Sequence record: NC_070870.1 | DNA length: 64,000 nt | Strand: one strand, 5' to 3' | Origin: Escherichia phage phi G17 | Shown here: piece by piece, positions 2,673 to 34,234 of the stretch | Layout of the letters: each line of letters begins with the position of its first letter | Numbering within the stretch: the first letter of the stretch is position 1 | Position numbers and translations under genes: made by a program | The notes under the pieces: generated by a model | Databases searched by the model: none | Seen by the model: the letters and a program-made list of their open reading frames with translations, nothing else | Told to the model about the DNA's origin: nothing

Positions 2673-3875
2673 ATGTTAAACTATAACGCTCCAATTGACG
2701 GTCAGAAATCTAGTATTGATGGTGCTGGTTCCGACCAGATGAATACCTTTTACTGGCTGAAGAAAGCTATTATTCAGTCTCGTAAAGACCAGTACTTCAT
2801 GCCACTGGCTAACACCATTAACATGCCGAAGAACTACGGTAAGACTGTTAAGGTGTACGAGTACGTTCCACTGCTTGATGATAAGAACATCAACGACCAG
2901 GGTATTGATGCTAATGGTGCTACCATTGTTAATGGTAACCTGTACGGTTCTTCTAAAGACGTTGGTAACATCACCTCTAAACTGCCTCTGCTGACAGAGA
3001 ACGGTGGTCGTGTTAACCGTGTAGGCTTTACCCGTCTGTCCCGTGAAGGTTCTATCCATAAGTTCGGTTTCTTCTACGAATTTACCCAAGAGTCCCTGGA
3101 CTTTGATTCTGATGACCAACTGAAAGAACACCTGTCTCGTGAACTGATGAACGGTGCTGTACAGTTGACTGAAGCTGTTCTCCAGAAAGACCTGTTGGCT
3201 GCTGCCGGTACTGTACTGTATGCAGGTGCTGCTACCTCTGATGCTACCATTACAGGTGAAGGTTCTACCCCGTCTGTAGTTTCTTATAAGAACCTGATGC
3301 GTCTTGACCAGATTCTTACTGAGAACCGTACCCCGACTCAGACTACTATCATCACTGGTTCTAAACTGACTGATACCAAAGTACTTGGTGGTACTCGTGT
3401 AATGTACGTTGGTTCTGAACTGGTTCCAGAACTGAAAGCGATGAAAGACCTGTTCGGTAATAAAGCATTCATCGAAATTCAGCACTATGCTGATGCTGGT
3501 ACTCTGATGAATGGTGAAGTTGGTTGTATCGACAAGTTCCGTATTATCCAGGTTCCTGAGATGCTGCATTGGGCAGGTGCTGGTGCTCAAGCTACTACTA
3601 ACCCGGGTTACCGTTCTTCTATGGTTGGTGGCCAAGAACACTATGACGTGTTCCCGATGCTGGTAGTTGGTGATGACTCCTTCTCTACCATTGGCTTCCA
3701 GACTGATGGTAAGTCTGTTAAGTTCACCATCATGACTAAGATGCCGGGTAAAGAAACTGCTGACCGTAATGACCCGTATGGCGAGACTGGTTTCAGTTCT
3801 ATCAAGTGGTACTACGGTATTCTGGTTAAACGTCCAGAACGTCTGGCTCTGATTAAGACTGTTGCTCCTCTGTAA
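2673..3875 (+). CDS. Major capsid protein (400 aa)
   Basis: ATG at 2673 with AGGA upstream; size and position match N4-type coat protein; followed by GC-rich hairpin; codon bias strong enough to leave a long stop-free antisense frame. Confidence 0.7.
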
Positions 3876-3942: not shown

Positions 3943-4584
3943 ATGAACATGAGCATTAACGATAAACCGACCGCTGACGTAGAACTGAACGTACAGGGCA
4001 ACGAAGATACCGTTAACGATATTGCAATGCCTAGCGAACTTGAAGTTCTTAAGCAACGTGCAACGTTGATGAATATTAAGTTCTCTAACAACATCTCCGT
4101 TGAGAAACTCCGTGAGAAGATTGAAGCTGCACAAGCAAGTGATGAACCAGAGGTAGCAGAATCTGCAATTAACCCTTTGGGTGAAAAACAAGAAGCTGGT
4201 GTTAAGAAGATGACCCTGGGCCAGAAGATTCGTGCAGAACAGACTCGACTGATTCGTGTACGTATTCAGAACCTTGACCCTAAGAAGAAAGACCTGCCGG
4301 GTGAGATTATCACCGTAGCTAACGAATATATGGGTACTGTACGTAAGTTTGTTCCATTCGGTGAGGTAACCGACAATGGTTATCATATCCCGTACTGTAT
4401 TTATGAATTCCTTAAAGAGCGTAAGTTCATCAACATTACGACTCGTAAAGGTAAGAATGGCTTACCGGATATCCGTGCAACTGAGGCACGTGAGTTCTCC
4501 ATTGAAGTATTGCCCCCACTGACTGAAGCAGAATTGGCTCAACTGGCTCAAGCACAGATTGCTGCTGGTAGCCTGAACGATTAA
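3943..4584 (+). CDS. Hypothetical virion protein (213 aa)
   Basis: ATG at 3943; in late operon downstream of capsid gene. Confidence 0.5.
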   Translation: MNMSINDKPTADVELNVQGNEDTVNDIAMPSELEVLKQRATLMNIKFSNNISVEKLREKIEAAQASDEPEVAESAINPLGEKQEAGVKKMTLGQKIRAEQTRLIRVRIQNLDPKKKDLPGEIITVANEYMGTVRKFVPFGEVTDNGYHIPYCIYEFLKERKFINITTRKGKNGLPDIRATEAREFSIEVLPPLTEAELAQLAQAQIAAGSLND

Positions 4585-29970: not shown

Positions 29971-30275
29971 TATTCCCCCTTGGGAACCATGTTTGCTTGG
30001 AACTCAGGTTCAGACATCAGGCCCAGGTTGTTGATAGACAGATAAACAATATCTTTCAGGTCAACCGAGGTGTCGAAACGCTGGTCCAGACTAATCTTCA
30101 GAGAGTGATTGGCACGGGCCAAATCTTTATAGGTCACATGAGGTTCGGCAGTGAGCAGCATTGTATTCATGGTAAGCAGGGAACCATCATCAGCTTTAGG
30201 AAGCTGGAAGATTACCTGTGCTGCTACCATCCAATGATATTTTTTGACGACGGTTTCTTTAGTACTTTTAGTCAT
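29970..30275 (-). CDS. Hypothetical protein (101 aa)
   Basis: ORF between DNA polymerase fragment and 157-aa ORF. Confidence 0.4.
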   Translation of the reverse strand: MTKSTKETVVKKYHWMVAAQVIFQLPKADDGSLLTMNTMLLTAEPHVTYKDLARANHSLKISLDQRFDTSVDLKDIVYLSINNLGLMSEPEFQANMVPKGE

Positions 30276-31243
30276 GCGAATGCCTTTTGAATTGTTTGAT
30301 TAACTTCTTCAGGGGTAGCGTGATTTGGAATCTCAATCTCGTTAGCCCACGTTGGGTAGAACAAGGACAGTTCCCCACCCAAACCAACTTCTGGATGAGC
30401 AATATCGGGATGGTCTTGCCAGTTAACGGCTTCAACCAAATGCTTGTTCGTGTACTGCAAGGTATCCATGTTGTCACGAATCATGAAGTACTGAGCATCA
30501 TGAATGTGAATACTAGGACGTATATCTAATCTGAACTCACTGGTTCTGACTTTACGCATAAATTCTGAGCCAGCACGGTTATTCAGTAGACACCAGCTTT
30601 GCCCTAAGGCATTGCCAGCAGTTCTACCTTCAGCCTCTGCTTCATATGGAGTCTTACATGTCCCACGTAAAACCTGAGCCAGTAAAGGAGTACGCACTCT
30701 TAAACCAAATGCAGCAGTTACATAACCAGTCTTAGCAGCCTCGTCTAGCTTAGCCTGAACCCAGGCATCACTAACTGTATACATCTCATGGTATCTGGAC
30801 TCGATTAACTTAGCCTTCTCTTCAGAGAAGCCACAGTTTTTCATCAAGCCCATGTAAGTCCCACCGTAGGTCAGTAGGAAAGTGGGTGCTTTTGACTCAC
30901 TACGTAAAGCCTTATACTTTTTCTGTATAGAGTTGATGCCTTCCACAGAGTCATCAATATCCGGCATTTGTTCACCGAAATAAAATTTAGCTCTGAGCGA
31001 ATGCCCGTCGAACCCGTCAGTATAGACGCGCAATTTATTAGGGTCTTTGGTTGTTAGGGCTGATATACGATCCTCTAAGGACGCAAAATCGAGGCCACAG
31101 AACAACCAACCTCCCTCATAGTTAAAGCATTCTGATACTTGTTCCTGCATGCCATATTTACTAGCCAATTGCATTAACTCGTCATAATCATCCAGGGTTA
31201 CTCTATCTTTTATGCTAACTAATTTATTTAATAAGTCCTGCAT
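30272..31243 (-). CDS. Family-A DNA polymerase, C-terminal (palm/fingers) fragment carrying motifs A, B, C
   Basis: LDFASLEDRISA (motif A, compare DYSQIELR), RSESKAPTFLLTYGGTYMGL (motif B, R..K...YG), IHIHDAQYF (motif C HD); track start 31267 is TTG, ATG at 31243. Confidence 0.65.
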   Translation of the reverse strand: MQDLLNKLVSIKDRVTLDDYDELMQLASKYGMQEQVSECFNYEGGWLFCGLDFASLEDRISALTTKDPNKLRVYTDGFDGHSLRAKFYFGEQMPDIDDSVEGINSIQKKYKALRSESKAPTFLLTYGGTYMGLMKNCGFSEEKAKLIESRYHEMYTVSDAWVQAKLDEAAKTGYVTAAFGLRVRTPLLAQVLRGTCKTPYEAEAEGRTAGNALGQSWCLLNNRAGSEFMRKVRTSEFRLDIRPSIHIHDAQYFMIRDNMDTLQYTNKHLVEAVNWQDHPDIAHPEVGLGGELSLFYPTWANEIEIPNHATPEEVNQTIQKAFA

Positions 31244-31880
31244 TACGAAGTACCTTCTCCTGTTCAACCATGTTATTAGCTAATACATAGGTAATAACTG
31301 CATTCATAACAGTATCTAGATCTCTATCTACTAGGATTTCCACTCTCTTACCTAAATGGGTAATTCTACCTACCCATTTATTTTTCGACTTACTGTAACT
31401 AACATAAGGAGTTGTACTCCAAACCCTTTTGTTAGTTTGTTGGGTACTCCTATTTGCCCATCTACAATTGTCTGGAGAGTAGTCTTTGTAGGCGTCAATC
31501 CTGTCAATACTCAGTCCTATTTCATAGCCGGAAGATAATGCCCAATCTCGGAAATTTTCATATGAATTTTTCCACTCATCACAAACATTTATGCCTTTGG
31601 CCCCATATTTGTAATAAGTGGAACATTTTTCATTATGACAGCGGTCTAGCATACCGTAGTAAACCTTGTATAGAGGCTCTTTTGAACGCCCATCCTTGTA
31701 ATTACGAGGGCATTCTTTGTACAAGCAACCACAGCTTCTTGTATGACCACTTTTTAATTTTTGAATATTGACCACAGTGGTATTACCACAGTCACACAGA
31801 CATACCCAATGCTTTGCATAGTATTTGTCTTTGTGGCTGAATCTCACTACGGTCAATCTATTAAATTTCTTTCCAATCAT
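31224..31880 (-). CDS. HNH homing endonuclease inserted between the two DNA polymerase fragments
   Basis: Cys-rich N-terminal region (WVCLCDCGN...SGHTRSCGC) and LSIDRIDAYKDYSPDNCRWA HNH-type motif; ATG at 31880 overlaps stop of upstream polymerase fragment (ATGA). Confidence 0.65.
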   Translation of the reverse strand: MIGKKFNRLTVVRFSHKDKYYAKHWVCLCDCGNTTVVNIQKLKSGHTRSCGCLYKECPRNYKDGRSKEPLYKVYYGMLDRCHNEKCSTYYKYGAKGINVCDEWKNSYENFRDWALSSGYEIGLSIDRIDAYKDYSPDNCRWANRSTQQTNKRVWSTTPYVSYSKSKNKWVGRITHLGKRVEILVDRDLDTVMNAVITYVLANNMVEQEKVLRNAGLIK

Positions 31881-33694
31881 TTGGCACCACCAATTGTATT
31901 TTTCAGGGACTGGATTAATGTATCCAGCTTGTCCCTGTTTGGCAAGTAACAACTGGGTGGGGCTTCGAAGCATTTCTTAATCTTCTTGGCGTATTTAGAA
32001 CCGGATGGAATTGTTTGTAGATTGGGCTCTGAAGCCGATAGCCTACCGGAGACTGTGCCTCCCAGATTGAGGTTGCCGAACAGATAGTGCCAGCCATCCG
32101 GCCCCGGTTGGGCATTCCTGAAAGCTGGTATAAAACTAGTGATAATCTTATCCACGAGTTTATAGTCGATAAGTGCATTGAGCAGTTCCTTAACATCTTC
32201 ACTCTGCGTATGTGTACGCAGTGCTTTAATAGTGTCACCGTCAGTAGCAGGTTGCTTGCTCTTAGTAAGACCAAGAACCGGTAAGCCAATGTAATCAAAT
32301 AACAGTTTCTGTAACTGTGGACCGGAGTTAGGATTAAACTCTATGTCACAATCAGCCAGTGTTACTTGCTTCTTCTTGAGCTTAGCATTCTTATCGTCTA
32401 CCCATTCCTGACGAAGCGTCAGGGTGAAGTTCTTCATGAGCTTAGACTCACGAATAGTTTTCAGAGCCTGGTTCCTGTCAGTTTCCATCTCTTCAGCTAC
32501 TTGGTTAACGGTTTCCATATTCATGGGCATACCGGTTAACTGCATCTGAATAATGTCTTCACAGGCTGGTTTAAAGATGTTGTTGTAAACATCCAGTTGG
32601 TCATCAGCAATGAGAGTATCCCAGTGCTTCTCGTAGGTGTACCACGTACACAAACCATCAATGAGGTTGTAACGTAACAGTTGCTCATTAGGAATAAGAC
32701 AAATGTCTTTAATATCATCCTGAGCATAGTTACCGGCATACTCCTGAGCCTGGTCTTTCAGACTAAGGTGATTACCAGCACAACTGTTAGTAGCCAAGTA
32801 GGTGATTAACTTAGTACAGTCCCAATTACGCAGCATGATTTCCATGCCATGTAGTAAGCCTTCTGTATCAATCAGGTTATCCATGAATAGCTGATAGATA
32901 AGTATGTACACGTCATAGCTAATGTTGTGATACATCTGCCGTTGAGTGTACTTAATGAAGAACTCACGTAACAGGTTACGAACAATATCGTTCCTGTTAA
33001 TGCGCCCATAGGGTGCTTCAGTAGCCCCCTTAATCGGCTCGTAGTCCACATTAAAGGCTATGCCTTGTGTCTTACTCCAACAGAACGTAATCGTTCCTAT
33101 ACCTGCGTTATAGTGCTTTAAACCGAAGGATTCGATGTCTATAGCCAGAGGCTTATTCATCTCAAGCAACTGGTCTAACCAGGCTTTAATCTTTTCGGGT
33201 GTGTCTGGATAGGCTTCAAACTCAATGATTCCCTGCCCAGGTTCAGCATACTGTCCTCGAATGTGGTTAAGTAATGCATCCATACCCTGAGCAATCTTGG
33301 CTCTCACTACAGGTGGGTCATAAAAGACCTGTCTGTAGTTAGGTGTATAGATAACCTTCTGCTTACCCCATACTGAGTCACAAACATAGCCGAGGTTAGC
33401 CTCTGCTTTAGCTTCTTTAGTCAGTATTTTGAAGTAGTCAGAATCGGTACAGATAATGTACTGAGTCTCTGCGTCATCCAGTACTTGTTGCAGTTCCTGC
33501 TGTATGAACTCTTTAATCTCCCTTGCAGGAGTCTTCTTCTTGCCTGGGGCAGAATGAAGTTCAAGGAAGATGAAATCTTCCATGCTTAGGTCATAAGGCA
33601 GCAGGTAGGTTTTAATCATCTCCTCCCTTCGGATTTGATGACCGAGGATAGCAATAGGATACTTACCCGTATCCTGAGAGGTGATGTAACGCAT
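31877..33694 (-). CDS. Family-A DNA polymerase, N-terminal fragment (3'-5' exonuclease-like plus thumb region, 605 aa)
   Basis: LAIDIESFGL (Exo I DxE-like), Y...D motifs; adjacent to the fragment carrying motifs A-C. Confidence 0.6.
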   Translation of the reverse strand: MRYITSQDTGKYPIAILGHQIRREEMIKTYLLPYDLSMEDFIFLELHSAPGKKKTPAREIKEFIQQELQQVLDDAETQYIICTDSDYFKILTKEAKAEANLGYVCDSVWGKQKVIYTPNYRQVFYDPPVVRAKIAQGMDALLNHIRGQYAEPGQGIIEFEAYPDTPEKIKAWLDQLLEMNKPLAIDIESFGLKHYNAGIGTITFCWSKTQGIAFNVDYEPIKGATEAPYGRINRNDIVRNLLREFFIKYTQRQMYHNISYDVYILIYQLFMDNLIDTEGLLHGMEIMLRNWDCTKLITYLATNSCAGNHLSLKDQAQEYAGNYAQDDIKDICLIPNEQLLRYNLIDGLCTWYTYEKHWDTLIADDQLDVYNNIFKPACEDIIQMQLTGMPMNMETVNQVAEEMETDRNQALKTIRESKLMKNFTLTLRQEWVDDKNAKLKKKQVTLADCDIEFNPNSGPQLQKLLFDYIGLPVLGLTKSKQPATDGDTIKALRTHTQSEDVKELLNALIDYKLVDKIITSFIPAFRNAQPGPDGWHYLFGNLNLGGTVSGRLSASEPNLQTIPSGSKYAKKIKKCFEAPPSCYLPNRDKLDTLIQSLKNTIGGAK

Positions 33695-33703
33695 ATCTTT
33701 ACC

Positions 33704-34234
33704 TTAGAAAATCAGATGAGAAGCTGCATAGTACTCAATGGAAGGTAGAATCTTCTCATACTGTTTGATTGCCATAGCATCACCAGCAAGAGTCCAAGCC
33801 GCTTCACGAGTACGCTGTAGCCCTTTGTACTGACCAGTCTGGTCTTGTGCTACCAGACATTCAGGCAGAGCATCACGTACATCCTGATAGGACATACAAC
33901 CACGAACCAGTCGATATACAGTCTGGTTCACAAGATGTACTTCCATAATCAGACGACTGGAGGCTTTCAGATACTTGTCCATTGCAGGCCATAGTTCTGG
34001 ATTAAGCGTCAATCGTTCACCGTAGGTTGGAGGCCTAGTAGCGTTAGAACGCTGATAGAACTCCCCTTGGTAAAGAAATCCAGCCGATACATCTACACCA
34101 TTGATACGGTCGTTCTTATCAATGATACCGTTTAACACACCATCAAGACGAACCAGTTCTGCTAAGAACAGGTGCTTGACTATCTCACTACTATTGGCAA
34201 CCTGACCAATAGTCGTTGAACCAATCTGAGGCAT
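33704..34234 (-). CDS. Hypothetical protein (176 aa)
   Basis: ORF between helicase and polymerase. Confidence 0.45.
   Translation of the reverse strand: MPQIGSTTIGQVANSSEIVKHLFLAELVRLDGVLNGIIDKNDRINGVDVSAGFLYQGEFYQRSNATRPPTYGERLTLNPELWPAMDKYLKASSRLIMEVHLVNQTVYRLVRGCMSYQDVRDALPECLVAQDQTGQYKGLQRTREAAWTLAGDAMAIKQYEKILPSIEYYAASHLIF

What the first reader, a model, noticed from the sequence alone, without database searches (positions are those of the whole stretch)
30272..33694. Family-A DNA polymerase split into two ORFs by an HNH endonuclease gene
The exonuclease/thumb part (31877..33694) and the palm part carrying motifs A, B and C (30272..31243) are separate reading frames on the same strand, with an HNH endonuclease ORF (31224..31880) between them. 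The endonuclease ATG overlaps the stop of the upstream fragment (ATGA) and its 3' end overlaps the start of the downstream fragment. Either the polymerase functions as two polypeptides or the insertion is an intron/intein-like element removed at the RNA level.
Basis: partly seen in the sequence, partly recalled or inferred. Interest (0 to 1): 0.6.

Follow-up and report, generated by a model that had tools for sequence, protein, structure and literature searches.

The report
Phage DNA polymerase split by mobile endonuclease
In this N4-like coliphage an 843-bp mobile endonuclease cassette cuts the essential DNA polymerase gene in two, just before its catalytic aspartate. The enzyme is most likely made as two separate proteins that reassemble, so this is a further example of a known but rarely documented "genes-in-pieces" arrangement.

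Summary
The window comes from a Gamaleyavirus (G7C-like, N4-like coliphage). Its family-A polymerase, N4 gp39, is continuous in most relatives. Here an 843-bp cassette (31112..31954, minus strand) interrupts it between codons 580 and 581, seven residues before the motif A aspartate.

The cassette encodes three things:
- a 25-aa basic tail plus stop, added to the N fragment;
- a PacI-like HNH endonuclease with an AP2 domain, whose start overlaps that stop (ATGA);
- an SD-like sequence, an ATG and a 44-aa acidic helical leader, added to the C fragment.

It is not a recognisable group I intron and not an intein. Tail and leader are under coding constraint. The same tail–HNH–leader arrangement sits at the same site in at least five metagenomic N4-like lineages whose polymerases are only 55–66% identical. 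In one of them the endonuclease is a pseudogene but the split persists.

Phage ST4 defines the cassette boundaries exactly. A 360-nt tract of foreign exon sequence downstream looks like co-conversion from homing.

Best explanation: two polypeptides that assemble, as in phage Aeh1 NrdA-a/MobE/NrdA-b. This is a new member of a known kind. It is annotated in three GenBank phages, but I found no published analysis.

The parts
31877..33694 (-). polA N fragment, 605 aa. Residues 1-580 are native: 3'-5' exonuclease, thumb, and motifs up to ...KKIKKCFEAPP. A 25-aa tail and a TGA stop follow.
   Evidence: ORF list. Pfam DNA_pol_A at residues 432-582, E 2.7e-18. Gap-free alignment to G7C gp39 residues 1-580. 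dN/dS 0.04 against PGN829.1 and ST4.
31112..31954 (-). The 843-bp mobile cassette: tail plus stop, HNH gene, then start plus leader. It is inserted between polymerase codons 580 (CCC, Pro) and 581 (GGT, Gly). The boundary can be shifted by one base without changing the result.
   Evidence: Removing it restores collinearity with the intact G7C, E20 and ECBP1 genes, 3558 nt each. PGN829.1, U1G and ST4 carry the same cassette with no indels. ST4 has E20-like exon sequence right up to both edges. GC is 0.34-0.40 inside against 0.43-0.46 in the flanks.
31880..31954 (-). C-terminal tail of the N fragment, SCYLPNRDKLDTLIQSLKNTIGGAK. Net charge +2, pI 9.1.
   Evidence: It is absent from intact gp39. 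Homologous tails occur in L009, L014, L010, P0122 and others, such as ARMLLNLEKLRNFIQTLKQTLEGAA and AYWKINQNMLQTFILELKQSLKGA. Seven of 8 tails are basic. The exon frame gives the best cross-lineage translation and has no stops.
31224..31880 (-). Free-standing homing endonuclease gene, 218 aa. It has an N-terminal Cys-rich beta domain, a PacI-like beta-beta-alpha-metal (HNH) core with DR...NCRW...Q..N, and a C-terminal AP2 DNA-binding domain.
31887..31960 (-). Predicted RNA hairpin. The end of exon 1 (CCACC, AGUUGU) pairs with the SD-like region of the endonuclease (ACAAUU, GGUGG). This is a candidate translational brake on the endonuclease.
   Evidence: Fold z-scores are -3.0 for the window, -4.2 for ST4 and about -2 for PGN829.1 and U1G. 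SD-sequestering stems are also predicted in L013 (z -3.9) and L009 (z -1.9), but not clearly in L014 or L011. This is inference only.
31253..31261 (-). SD-like AGGAGAAGG, ending 9 nt before the C-fragment ATG (31243..31241), inside the 3' end of the HNH ORF.
   Evidence: Read from the sequence. An AAGG(T) motif lies at the same distance from the ATG in L009, L010, L011 and L014.
31112..31243 (-). N-terminal leader of the C fragment, MQDLLNKLVSIKDRVTLDDYDELMQLASKYGMQEQVSECFNYEG. Net charge -5, pI 4.2.
   Evidence: It is absent from intact gp39. It is conserved as MQ[DE]LL.KL.S.....SL.[DE]Y..L...A...G....ECF.YE. in polymerases only 55-66% identical. All 7 leaders are acidic. dN/dS 0.07-0.14. AlphaFold predicts helices at residues 2-10, 17-29 and 33-37 with pLDDT 72-86.
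30272..31243 (-). polA C fragment, 323 aa: the leader followed by the palm and fingers with motif A (GLDFASLEDR), motif B (RSESKAPTFLLTYGG) and motif C (IHIHDAQ).
   Evidence: Pfam DNA_pol_A, E 1.3e-15. Alignment to gp39 residues 581-859. AlphaFold pLDDT 90.9. Foldseek matches to KlenTaq and Bst Pol I over 264-283 columns.
30752..31111 (-). Divergent exon-2 tract, codons 581 to about 700. It looks like a co-conversion footprint of homing.
   Evidence: Most 60-nt blocks here are 62-75% identical to G7C and E20, against 90-100% in the exon upstream of the cassette. The tract is shared with PGN829.1 and U1G but not ST4, and is partly present (codons 601-700) in the cassette-less ECBP1.

Best explanation
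A free-standing homing-endonuclease cassette has invaded the essential family-A DNA polymerase gene (N4 gp39 homologue) between codons 580 and 581. The result is a genes-in-pieces polymerase.

Shown by sequence and comparison:
- The cassette is a discrete 843-bp unit that is present or absent among otherwise near-identical Gamaleyavirus genomes.
- It supplies a stop codon after a 25-aa basic tail, an endonuclease gene whose ATG overlaps that stop, and an SD-like sequence plus ATG followed by a 44-aa acidic leader fused to the downstream half.
- Tail and leader are translated sequences under purifying selection.
- They are conserved together with the endonuclease, at the same polymerase site, in distantly related N4-like phages.

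Inferred:
- From one transcript the phage makes a 605-aa N fragment (exonuclease, thumb, primer-template contacts) and a 323-aa C fragment (catalytic motifs A, B and C). These associate non-covalently into an active polymerase.
- The oppositely charged tail and helical leader probably help docking, as shown experimentally for the tails of the MobE-split NrdA of phage Aeh1. I put this sub-claim at about 0.4-0.5.
- The endonuclease cleaves or nicks cassette-free polymerase alleles in mixed infections, and repair copies the cassette in. This would explain the foreign exon tract downstream.
- Endonuclease translation is probably coupled to N-fragment termination and damped by a hairpin that hides its SD-like sequence.
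For: Exact collinearity and an exact 843-nt insertion.

The same cassette is present in three plaque-isolated lytic phages, PGN829.1, U1G and ST4. RefSeq or GenBank annotate two polymerase CDSs there, plus an HNH CDS in the RefSeq records for PGN829.1 and U1G. The gp39 polymerase is a core gene of the family (PMC7650795).

Both polymerase halves are under strong purifying selection: dN/dS is 0.04 for the N fragment and 0.02-0.10 for the C fragment.

Tail and leader:
- dN/dS is 0.07-0.14 for the leader and 0.05 for the tail in the window-ST4 comparison.
- Between the window and L009 the third codon position is the least conserved: 0.60/0.68/0.40 for the tail and 0.66/0.75/0.43 for the leader.
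- Only the exon frame is free of stops and gives high BLOSUM scores: leader 106-111 against 7-55, tail 44 against -4 to 13.

The homologous tail-HNH-leader architecture occurs at the same site in L009, L014, L010, L011 and L013, whose polymerase bodies are 55-66% identical. In L010 the HNH gene has lost its N-terminal part and carries TAG at the conserved Trp, yet both fragment ORFs with tail and leader are intact.

An SD-like sequence and ATG are conserved upstream of the leader. Tails are basic in 7 of 8 lineages and leaders acidic in 7 of 7. [quoted passage not shown] The leader is predicted to be helical at pLDDT 72-86.

Split, active phage enzymes have precedent: Aeh1 NrdA, T4 gp39/gp60, and gene 43A/43B of phages 25 and 44RR (PMC2988022).

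Mobility is supported by the presence/absence polymorphism, by ST4 carrying the cassette in an E20-like gene, by the downstream foreign tract, and by the mosaic in ECBP1.
Against: There is no transcript or protein data, so splicing is excluded only by sequence arguments.

The Rfam negative is weakened by a demonstrated false negative. The same scan missed a real PhAPEC5-type group I intron in L009 and L015, which I recognised by eye.

Amphipathic-helix scores for the tail and leader were not better than shuffles.

Tail conservation may partly reflect RNA-level constraints, since its 3' end encodes the endonuclease SD-like sequence and start and forms part of the hairpin. The window-PGN829.1 tail comparison shows 0 synonymous and 3 non-synonymous changes.

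The endonuclease lacks the canonical first His of HNH (it has DR, as PacI does). Its activity and target site are untested.
Confidence: 0.8

Rival explanations
1. The 843-nt insert is a self-splicing intron (group I or other) carrying a homing endonuclease ORF. The polymerase would be translated from a spliced, continuous mRNA.
For: A different insertion in the same gene of PhAPEC5-type relatives, at PNL|Q about 22 codons upstream, is a group I intron (RF00028, 38 bits, E 8e-7). HNH endonucleases are commonly intron-encoded. Rfam can miss real introns, as it did in L009 and L015. The tail-coding region forms a stable hairpin.
Against: - No RF00028 signal at E <= 10 in the window, or at E <= 5 in PGN829.1.
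- No GAYAUAGUC-type core element in the window cassette or in its homologues in L010, L011, L013 and L014.
- Only 74 and 112 nt lie outside the endonuclease ORF.
- Those stretches are open in the exon frame in every lineage and show a coding pattern of substitution.
- Exon 1 ends in C (or T or A in relatives) and the insert ends in A. Choices that put a U before the 5' splice site and a G at the 3' end either shift the frame or alter the conserved PPGW junction (my reading).
- The start and stop overlaps are conserved.
Confidence: 0.05
2. The polymerase does work as two polypeptides, but the tail and leader are incidental. They would be read-through into cassette sequence and a spacer that merely provides a start codon, with no role in assembly. 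The two halves would associate through the native domain interface alone.
For: [quoted passage not shown] The 3' end of the tail doubles as the endonuclease SD-like sequence and start. Hydrophobic-moment tests were not significant. Tail sequences in L011 and L013 differ considerably from the window tail. Engineered split polymerases can function without added tags (Pfu, PMC3061061, listed; I did not read it in detail).
Against: - The leader is conserved at the protein level across polymerases 55-66% identical, and is predicted to be folded.
- Charge complementarity is consistent across lineages.
- Tail and leader persist after the endonuclease has decayed in L010.
- The split falls between two adjacent elements of the palm, 7 residues before the catalytic Asp, where extra stabilisation is plausible.
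Confidence: 0.3
3. The interrupted gene is a dead polymerase. Replication would depend on a host or helper polymerase, or on a recoding event (read-through or ribosome bypass) that joins the halves.
For: None beyond the interruption itself. Ribosomal bypass of a 50-nt gap is known for T4 gene 60 (bioRxiv 10.1101/2022.08.31.505936, listed).
Against: - Both halves have dN/dS of 0.02-0.10.
- The arrangement is maintained in plaque-purified lytic isolates and in distant lineages.
- Reading through the TGA in frame runs into further stops within a few codons.
- The 843-nt gap is far beyond any known bypass.
Confidence: 0.03

Closest known systems
Aeromonas phage Aeh1 nrdA-a / mobE / nrdA-b, the genes-in-pieces ribonucleotide reductase (Friedrich et al. 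2007; Crona et al. 2011, PMC3045599)
   Same: - An essential, normally continuous enzyme gene is split within its catalytic core by a free-standing HNH-family homing endonuclease gene.
- The endonuclease ORF overlaps the downstream fragment.
[quoted passage not shown]
- The upstream tail is basic and the downstream tail acidic.
- A predicted RNA structure limits endonuclease translation.
   Different: - The host gene is different: a family-A DNA polymerase rather than NrdA.
- The endonuclease lineage is different: a PacI-like nuclease with an AP2 domain rather than MobE.
- The split here is found in many divergent phages with conserved tails, and shows presence/absence polymorphism within one genus. 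Aeh1 was a single case.
- Function and the role of the tails are experimentally shown for Aeh1 and only inferred here.
Split family-B DNA polymerase, gene 43A/43B, of T4-related Aeromonas phages 25 and 44RR (Petrov et al. 2010, as summarised in PMC2988022)
   Same: A replicative phage DNA polymerase is encoded as two cistrons, in one case with a homing endonuclease (seg) gene between them. The two products co-purify and have polymerase activity.
   Different: It is a family-B enzyme, split at a different structural position and by a GIY-YIG-type seg endonuclease or an untranslated spacer. No conserved mobile tails have been described.
Group I introns with HNH endonucleases in phage family-A polymerase genes: the PhAPEC5, PhAPEC7 and Pollock type in the same genus, and from memory SPO1/SP82 I-HmuI and the T7-like phage introns
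   Same: The same gene and neighbourhood, within about 22 codons, in a highly conserved polymerase region. An HNH-family endonuclease is involved. Presence or absence varies among close relatives.
   Different: Those elements have a ribozyme core (RF00028 hit in PhAPEC5; ACGACUAUC...GAUAUAGUCUGCUC in L009 and L015) and leave no junction peptides. The window cassette has no detectable core, and its flanks are coding.
Fractured genes with split inteins and a free-standing endonuclease (Dassa et al. 2009, PMC2677866)
   Same: The gene halves are separated by a free-standing homing endonuclease gene, and junction peptides sit on both halves.
   Different: The junction peptides here total 69 aa and have no Hint-domain blocks. 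There is no conserved Cys or Ser at the start of the tail (A or G in other lineages). There is no HN followed by Cys/Ser/Thr at the leader-extein junction, where the next residue is Gly.

Membership tests
Family A DNA polymerase (Pfam PF00476), N4 gp39 orthologue | The two fragments are collinear, non-overlapping parts of one polymerase with motifs A, B and C and the exonuclease domain. | tested here: met
   Pfam hits on both fragments. Gap-free alignment to G7C gp39 residues 1-580 and 581-859. PDB sequence matches to Taq, Klenow and Bst Pol I. The C-fragment model matches KlenTaq and Bst by Foldseek.
HEG-generated genes-in-pieces with junction tails (Aeh1 nrdA/mobE type) | The gene is continuous in close relatives and interrupted by a free-standing endonuclease gene, not by an intron or intein. 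| tested here: met
   Most of the 71 matching Gamaleyavirus records lack the 843 nt. Exact boundaries come from G7C, E20 and ST4. The intron and intein tests below failed.
HEG-generated genes-in-pieces with junction tails (Aeh1 nrdA/mobE type) | Each piece has its own stop or start signals and carries a unique tail that is absent from unsplit homologues, with opposite charges on the two tails. | tested here: met
   TGA after the 25-aa tail, and an SD-like AGGAGAAGG plus ATG before the 44-aa leader. pI 9.1 against 4.2. Tails are basic in 7 of 8 lineages and leaders acidic in 7 of 7.
HEG-generated genes-in-pieces with junction tails (Aeh1 nrdA/mobE type) | The separately translated fragments assemble into an active enzyme, and the tails are required. 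| not testable with these tools
   This needs expression and biochemistry.
Group I intron | A conserved catalytic core (P3-P9) detectable by covariance model. | tested here: not met
   No RF00028 match at E <= 10 in window 30800-32300, or at E <= 5 in PGN829.1. The positive control PhAPEC5 scored 38 bits. Caveat: the scan also missed the PhAPEC5-type intron in L009 and L015.
Group I intron | U at the end of the 5' exon and G at the intron 3' end, compatible with an in-frame junction that restores the protein. | tested here: not met
   The boundaries defined by ST4 and E20 are ...CCACCC|AGUUG...GAGGGA|GGUUGG. Alternative U/G choices shift the frame or change PPGW (my reading).
Group I intron | Sequence outside the endonuclease ORF evolves as structured RNA, not as protein-coding sequence in the exon frame. 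| tested here: not met
   Third-position variation, low dN/dS, and an exon frame that is stop-free and best scoring.
Intein / split intein | Either an in-frame insertion, or a split Hint domain of at least about 130 aa with Cys/Ser at intein position 1 and His-Asn followed by Cys/Ser/Thr at the C junction. | tested here: not met
   The endonuclease is in another frame, after a stop. Tail plus leader total 69 aa. Tails begin with S, A or G. Leaders end in ..YEG..YEE..QDP or ..YDA, followed by Gly.
HNH (beta-beta-alpha-metal) homing endonuclease | Beta-beta-alpha-metal nuclease fold with conserved catalytic and Zn-binding residues. | tested here: inconclusive
HNH (beta-beta-alpha-metal) homing endonuclease | Behaves as a mobile element: presence/absence polymorphism at one site and co-conversion of flanks. 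| tested here: met
   The cassette is present in the window, PGN829.1, U1G and ST4 and absent from most relatives. There is a foreign exon tract downstream, the cassette sits in an E20-like background in ST4, and ECBP1 is a mosaic.
HNH (beta-beta-alpha-metal) homing endonuclease | Site-specific cleavage or nicking of the cassette-free allele. | not testable with these tools
   This needs purified protein and a G7C-type target DNA.

The most novel reading that the evidence does not exclude
The 843-bp unit may be a self-contained 'split-and-dock' homing cassette. On this reading the endonuclease gene always travels with a basic tail and an acidic three-helix leader, and grafts them onto the two halves of whichever polymerase allele it invades. 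These co-inherited peptides, rather than the native domain interface, would keep the two-piece polymerase together. The element would thus carry its own protein-level antidote. That antidote would have allowed it to spread across distantly related N4-like phage lineages, and could be reused as natural portable docking tags for split proteins.
Probability: 0.35. Interest if true: 0.65.

Novelty: new member of a known kind. Interest (0 to 1): 0.5.

Why it matters
Replicative family-A polymerases are almost always single chains. A naturally two-piece enzyme cut seven residues before the motif A aspartate would show how much fragmentation the palm tolerates.

Only one system (Aeh1 NrdA) has experimental evidence that junction tails derived from a mobile element rescue a split enzyme. 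This locus offers a second case that is much more widely distributed. It has cassette-plus and cassette-minus sister phages (the window, PGN829.1, U1G and ST4 against G7C and E20) that infect E. coli. Homing, co-conversion and the need for the tails are therefore directly testable.

There is also a practical point. Genome annotation and polymerase-based phylogenies of N4-like phages need to recognise at least three different interruptions of this gene.

Tried and rejected
No interaction model exists.

2. I asked whether the last 15 residues of the leader are a duplicated copy of the pre-motif-A segment (KYAKKIKKCFEAPP).
- A PSSM built from 61 intact polymerases gave negative scores, with p about 0.05-0.15 for the window and 0.004-0.01 for P0044 and P0072.
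- HHalign aligned only 11 columns, P = 0.03.
- HMMER and tblastn alignments do regularly extend 10-15 positions into the leader.
- I treat this as suggestive only, not as a finding.

3. Amphipathic-helix (hydrophobic moment) tests on tails and leaders were not better than shuffles.

4. Rfam scans of the homologous cassettes in L009-L013 found nothing. The scan also missed a real intron, so the negative carries limited weight.

5. The sigma-70 promoter and terminator scan of 30000-34000 gave nothing above shuffles on the coding strand between the fragments. N4-type promoters are not covered by that scan.

6. An IMG/VR scan found no window-type split in any of the 80 best loci. A profile search of 1.84 billion representatives returned mostly full-length polymerases among its top 150 and none aligned from the start of the leader. 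The cassette is therefore a minority state.

7. A search for paralogues of this or the other two polymerase-associated endonucleases elsewhere in the window found none.

8. Literature searches for the split in papers on PGN829.1, U1G, ST4 or N4-like diversity found no discussion of it.

Full report
**Observation**

All genes in this region lie on the minus strand. The ORF list and the sequence itself show three ORFs:
- a 605-aa ORF at 31877..33694;
- a 218-aa ORF from ATG 31880 to TAA 31224, whose ATG overlaps the upstream TGA as ATGA;
- a 323-aa ORF from ATG 31243 to 30272, which overlaps the 3' end of the middle ORF by 20 nt.

Pfam DNA_pol_A matches the first ORF at profile positions 11-152 and the third at positions 135-303. 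The middle ORF has no Pfam hit.

**Identity of the phage and exact anatomy**

Megablast places the window in Gamaleyavirus, the G7C-like N4-like coliphages. Most of the 71 matching records align in two pieces that span 3158 nt instead of 4001 nt, so they lack 843 nt. Only PGN829.1, U1G and ST4 align end to end.

Against G7C gp39 (859 aa), N-fragment residues 1-580 align without gaps to gp39 1-580, which ends ...KKIKKCFEAPP. The C fragment aligns from gp39 residue 581 (GW[IL]FCGLDFASLEDR...) to the end. Removing exactly 31112..31954 makes the locus the same length as those of G7C, E20 and ECBP1, 3558 nt each. The break falls seven residues before the motif A aspartate. By sequence alignment to Taq, Klenow and Bst Pol I, this is just upstream of the strand that carries the first catalytic Asp.

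What is left over at the junction is a 25-aa tail on the N fragment (SCYLPNRDKLDTLIQSLKNTIGGAK) and a 44-aa leader on the C fragment (MQDLLNKLVSIKDRVTLDDYDELMQLASKYGMQEQVSECFNYEG). The cassette has lower GC (0.34-0.40) than its flanks (0.43-0.46).

**The cassette is a mobile unit**

The window, PGN829.1, U1G and ST4 carry the cassette with about 92% identity and no indels. ST4 has E20-like polymerase sequence right up to both cassette edges, at 95-98% identity in the adjacent 60-nt blocks. This fixes the boundaries.

In the window, PGN829.1 and U1G, most of the 360 nt downstream of the cassette (codons 581 to about 700) are only 62-75% identical to G7C and E20. The exon upstream of the cassette is 90-100% identical. 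The cassette-free phage ECBP1 carries the window-like version of codons 601-700 but the E20-like version of codons 581-600.

This one-sided foreign tract and the mosaics are what co-conversion during endonuclease-initiated gene conversion would leave. That is an inference. From memory, not checked here, asymmetric co-conversion has been described for nicking HNH endonucleases of the SPO1/SP82 introns.

**The endonuclease**

The 218-aa protein matches PHROG 374 'HNH endonuclease' (E 2e-63). It has only a weak sequence match to the restriction enzyme PacI, over the motif LS[IV]DR.D....YSP.N.R. Its relatives are widespread in phages, 766 records, with the nearest outside these four genomes at 40% identity.

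R127, N138 and C139 are invariant across the family. D126, Q147, N150 and seven cysteines are at least 90% conserved. Within the genus dN/dS is 0.07-0.10, so the gene appears to be maintained. The canonical first histidine of HNH is absent, as in PacI, so I call membership in the HNH superfamily likely but not proven. The window has no paralogue of this gene.

**Intron or intein?**

An E-value-threshold Rfam scan of 30800-32300 found no group I signal at E <= 10. The same was true at E <= 5 for PGN829.1 and for the different insertion in SP5M. As a positive control, the PhAPEC5 insertion at PNL|Q, about 22 codons upstream, gave RF00028 at 38 bits and E 8e-7.

This negative has limited weight. 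The scan also missed insertions in L009 and L015 that I recognised as the same intron family from the shared ACGACUAUC...GAUAUAGUCUGCUC core with compensatory stem changes. The window cassette and its homologues lack that element.

Stronger arguments come from the sequence:
- Only 74 and 112 nt of the cassette lie outside the endonuclease ORF.
- Both stretches are open in the exon frame in every lineage examined.
- The boundaries...CCACCC|AGUUG...GAGGGA|GGUUGG, do not allow a U before the 5' splice site and a G at the 3' end while restoring PPGW (my reading).

An intein is excluded for these reasons:
- The endonuclease is out of frame, behind a stop codon.
- The junction peptides total 69 aa.
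- Tails start with S, A or G.
- The residue after the leader is Gly.

**Tail and leader are real, conserved peptides**

A search with the C fragment returned not only near-identical proteins. It also returned 328-334-aa C fragments, only 55-66% identical, that begin with a recognisably homologous leader. For example, P0014 begins MQELLEKLTSLEVGISLDEYAVLEGLATKCGLLDDLQECFIYEG and P0044 begins MQDLLVEYLENLGTCLSLKEYDQLISKIKTILSKDMFEKLKKCFNYEE. P0019, P0072 and P0093 are further cases.

Their contigs show the same architecture:
- an N fragment ending ...K.IK.CF.AP[PEK] followed by a tail, such as ARMLLNLEKLRNFIQTLKQTLEGAA in L009 and L014, or AYWKINQNMLQTFILELKQSLKGA in L010;
- a homologue of the window's endonuclease at 37-47% identity, usually overlapping both neighbours;
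- then the leader-bearing C fragment.

In L010 the endonuclease has lost its N-terminal 60 residues and has TAG in place of the conserved Trp codon. Even so, the N fragment with its tail and the leader with its C fragment are both intact. In L011 the polymerase is in at least three pieces.

Coding constraint is visible at both evolutionary scales. Within the genus, dN/dS is 0.07-0.14 for the leader and 0.05 for the tail (window against ST4). The window-PGN829.1 tail comparison has 0 synonymous and 3 non-synonymous changes, which is too few to interpret. Between the window and L009, identity by codon position is 0.60/0.68/0.40 for the tail and 0.66/0.75/0.43 for the leader. Only the exon frame is stop-free, and it gives BLOSUM scores of 106-111 for the leader and 44 for the tail, against -4 to 55 in the other frames.

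An SD-like AGGAGAAGG ends 9 nt before the C-fragment ATG. An AAGG(T) motif is found at the same distance in four other lineages.

AlphaFold of the C fragment (pLDDT 90.9) predicts the leader as three helices (residues 2-10, 17-29, 33-37; pLDDT 72-86) that lead into the motif A strand. The body of the model matches KlenTaq and Bst Pol I over 264-283 columns.

**Mechanism**

The closest precedent is phage Aeh1. There the HNH endonuclease gene mobE splits nrdA, and the two products carry a basic (pI 10.4) and an acidic (pI 3.8) tail that are essential for activity (PMC3045599).

Here the tails are basic in 7 of 8 lineages (pI 7.9-10) and the leaders acidic in 7 of 7 (pI 4.1-5.5). The window values are 9.1 and 4.2.

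I therefore propose the following:
- The polymerase is made as a fragment of about 69 kDa and one of about 37 kDa, and the two associate.
- The charged tail and helical leader probably assist.
- The endonuclease spreads the whole unit by homing.

The two-polypeptide part I hold at about 0.8. The docking role of the tails I hold at about 0.4-0.5, for three reasons: I could not model the complex; helix-amphipathicity tests were not significant; and the 3' end of the tail also encodes the endonuclease's SD-like sequence and start, so it is constrained at the RNA level as well.

A predicted hairpin pairs the end of exon 1 (CCACC) with that SD-like sequence (GGUGG). Its z-score is -3.0 in the window, -4.2 in ST4 and about -2 in PGN829.1 and U1G. 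Analogous SD-sequestering stems are predicted in L013 and L009 but not clearly in L014 or L011. This resembles the RNA structure reported to limit MobE translation, but here it is only a prediction.

**What I could not establish**

The C-terminal third of the leader (..QVSECFNYEG) resembles the pre-motif-A segment that the N fragment retains (..KIKKCFEAPP). Alignment programs regularly extend into it. Dedicated tests were weak, however: PSSM p was 0.05-0.15 for the window and HHalign gave P = 0.03 over 11 columns. A duplication origin is therefore a lead, not a result.

The window-type split is a minority state. None of the 80 best IMG/VR loci has it. The top 150 cluster representatives in a 1.84-billion-protein profile search are mostly full-length polymerases, and none aligned from the start of the leader.

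**Comparison and novelty**

Split phage enzymes created by homing endonucleases are known: Aeh1 NrdA, T4 topoisomerase gp39/gp60, and family-B polymerase 43A/43B of phages 25 and 44RR (PMC2988022). This locus is a new member of that kind, in a family-A polymerase.

RefSeq annotates two 'DNA polymerase I' CDSs and an 'HNH endonuclease' in PGN829.1 and U1G. GenBank annotates two polymerase CDSs around a hypothetical protein in ST4. I found no paper in the searchable library that discusses the arrangement.

What it adds to the known cases is comparative evidence that the junction peptides are conserved parts of the mobile cassette across distant lineages. It also offers an experimentally convenient set of cassette-plus and cassette-minus coliphages.

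Noticed in passing
L003 (PhAPEC5), L004 (SP5M), and proteins P0008-P0159: The N4-like family-A polymerase gene is interrupted at three or more different sites within about 55 codons around motif A. One is a group I intron at PNL|Q (PhAPEC5 type). One is the window-type cassette at codon 580/581. One is a NUMOD4+HNH_3 cassette after KLKVY (SP5M type). There may be a fourth element after MPDI (sequences like ELCPE...YFHSEEEIEY). Many metagenomic fragments begin or end at these points.
   Followed up: partly
L004:1783-1920 (minus strand), and P0124, P0125, P0126, P0135, P0148, P0149: The SP5M-type split has its own conserved junction peptides. The N fragment carries a 44-aa tail (MGVIVYSVTIDGVDHHIRDDDTIVYDGKTFTGEEFYNAYTNSLL) that is conserved across divergent lineages. 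The C fragment carries a leader of about 27 aa (MSQFDNLPKSTHDFTGKKIQSVKKVGSS). This suggests that cassettes carrying tails are a recurring theme.
   Followed up: no
L011:1736-5487: One metagenomic N4-like phage encodes the polymerase in at least three pieces: 534 aa, then a 45-aa ORF, then 110 aa, then the window-type HNH gene, then 328 aa. No endonuclease gene lies at the first break.
   Followed up: no
L010:4035-4517: The cassette endonuclease is a pseudogene here. Its N-terminal 60 residues are missing and TAG replaces the conserved Trp codon of NCRW, at position 4284. The split polymerase ORFs with tail and leader remain intact.
   Followed up: yes
L008 (ECBP1), polymerase codons 581-700: The cassette-free phage ECBP1 is a mosaic. 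Codons 581-600 are E20-like (95% identical) and codons 601-700 are window-like (85-93% identical). This is consistent with recombination or cassette loss inside the co-conversion tract.
   Followed up: partly
L047, L052, L055 and L057 (around nt 3540-3660), and P0027, P0033, P0035, P0038, P0046, P0049: A subset of intact N4-like polymerases has an in-frame insertion of about 28 aa between NLQNLPAN and KLIKSCF (for example VAMVISAALLALYPFLAQFTKKGKLSLG). Some C fragments start exactly at this insertion. tblastn aligned the window leader to it, but the profile comparison was weak, P = 0.03.
   Followed up: partly
L009:2966-3640 and L015:3108-3950: Rfam RF00028 did not report these insertions in the scans that covered them (L009: E <= 1 in 40 kb and E <= 10 in a focused 1.75-kb scan; L015 was not scanned). 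They share the ACGACUAUC...GAUAUAGUCUGCUC core, with compensatory stem changes, with the PhAPEC5 intron that Rfam does detect. This is a concrete false negative for L009 that affects any intron-absence claim.
   Followed up: yes
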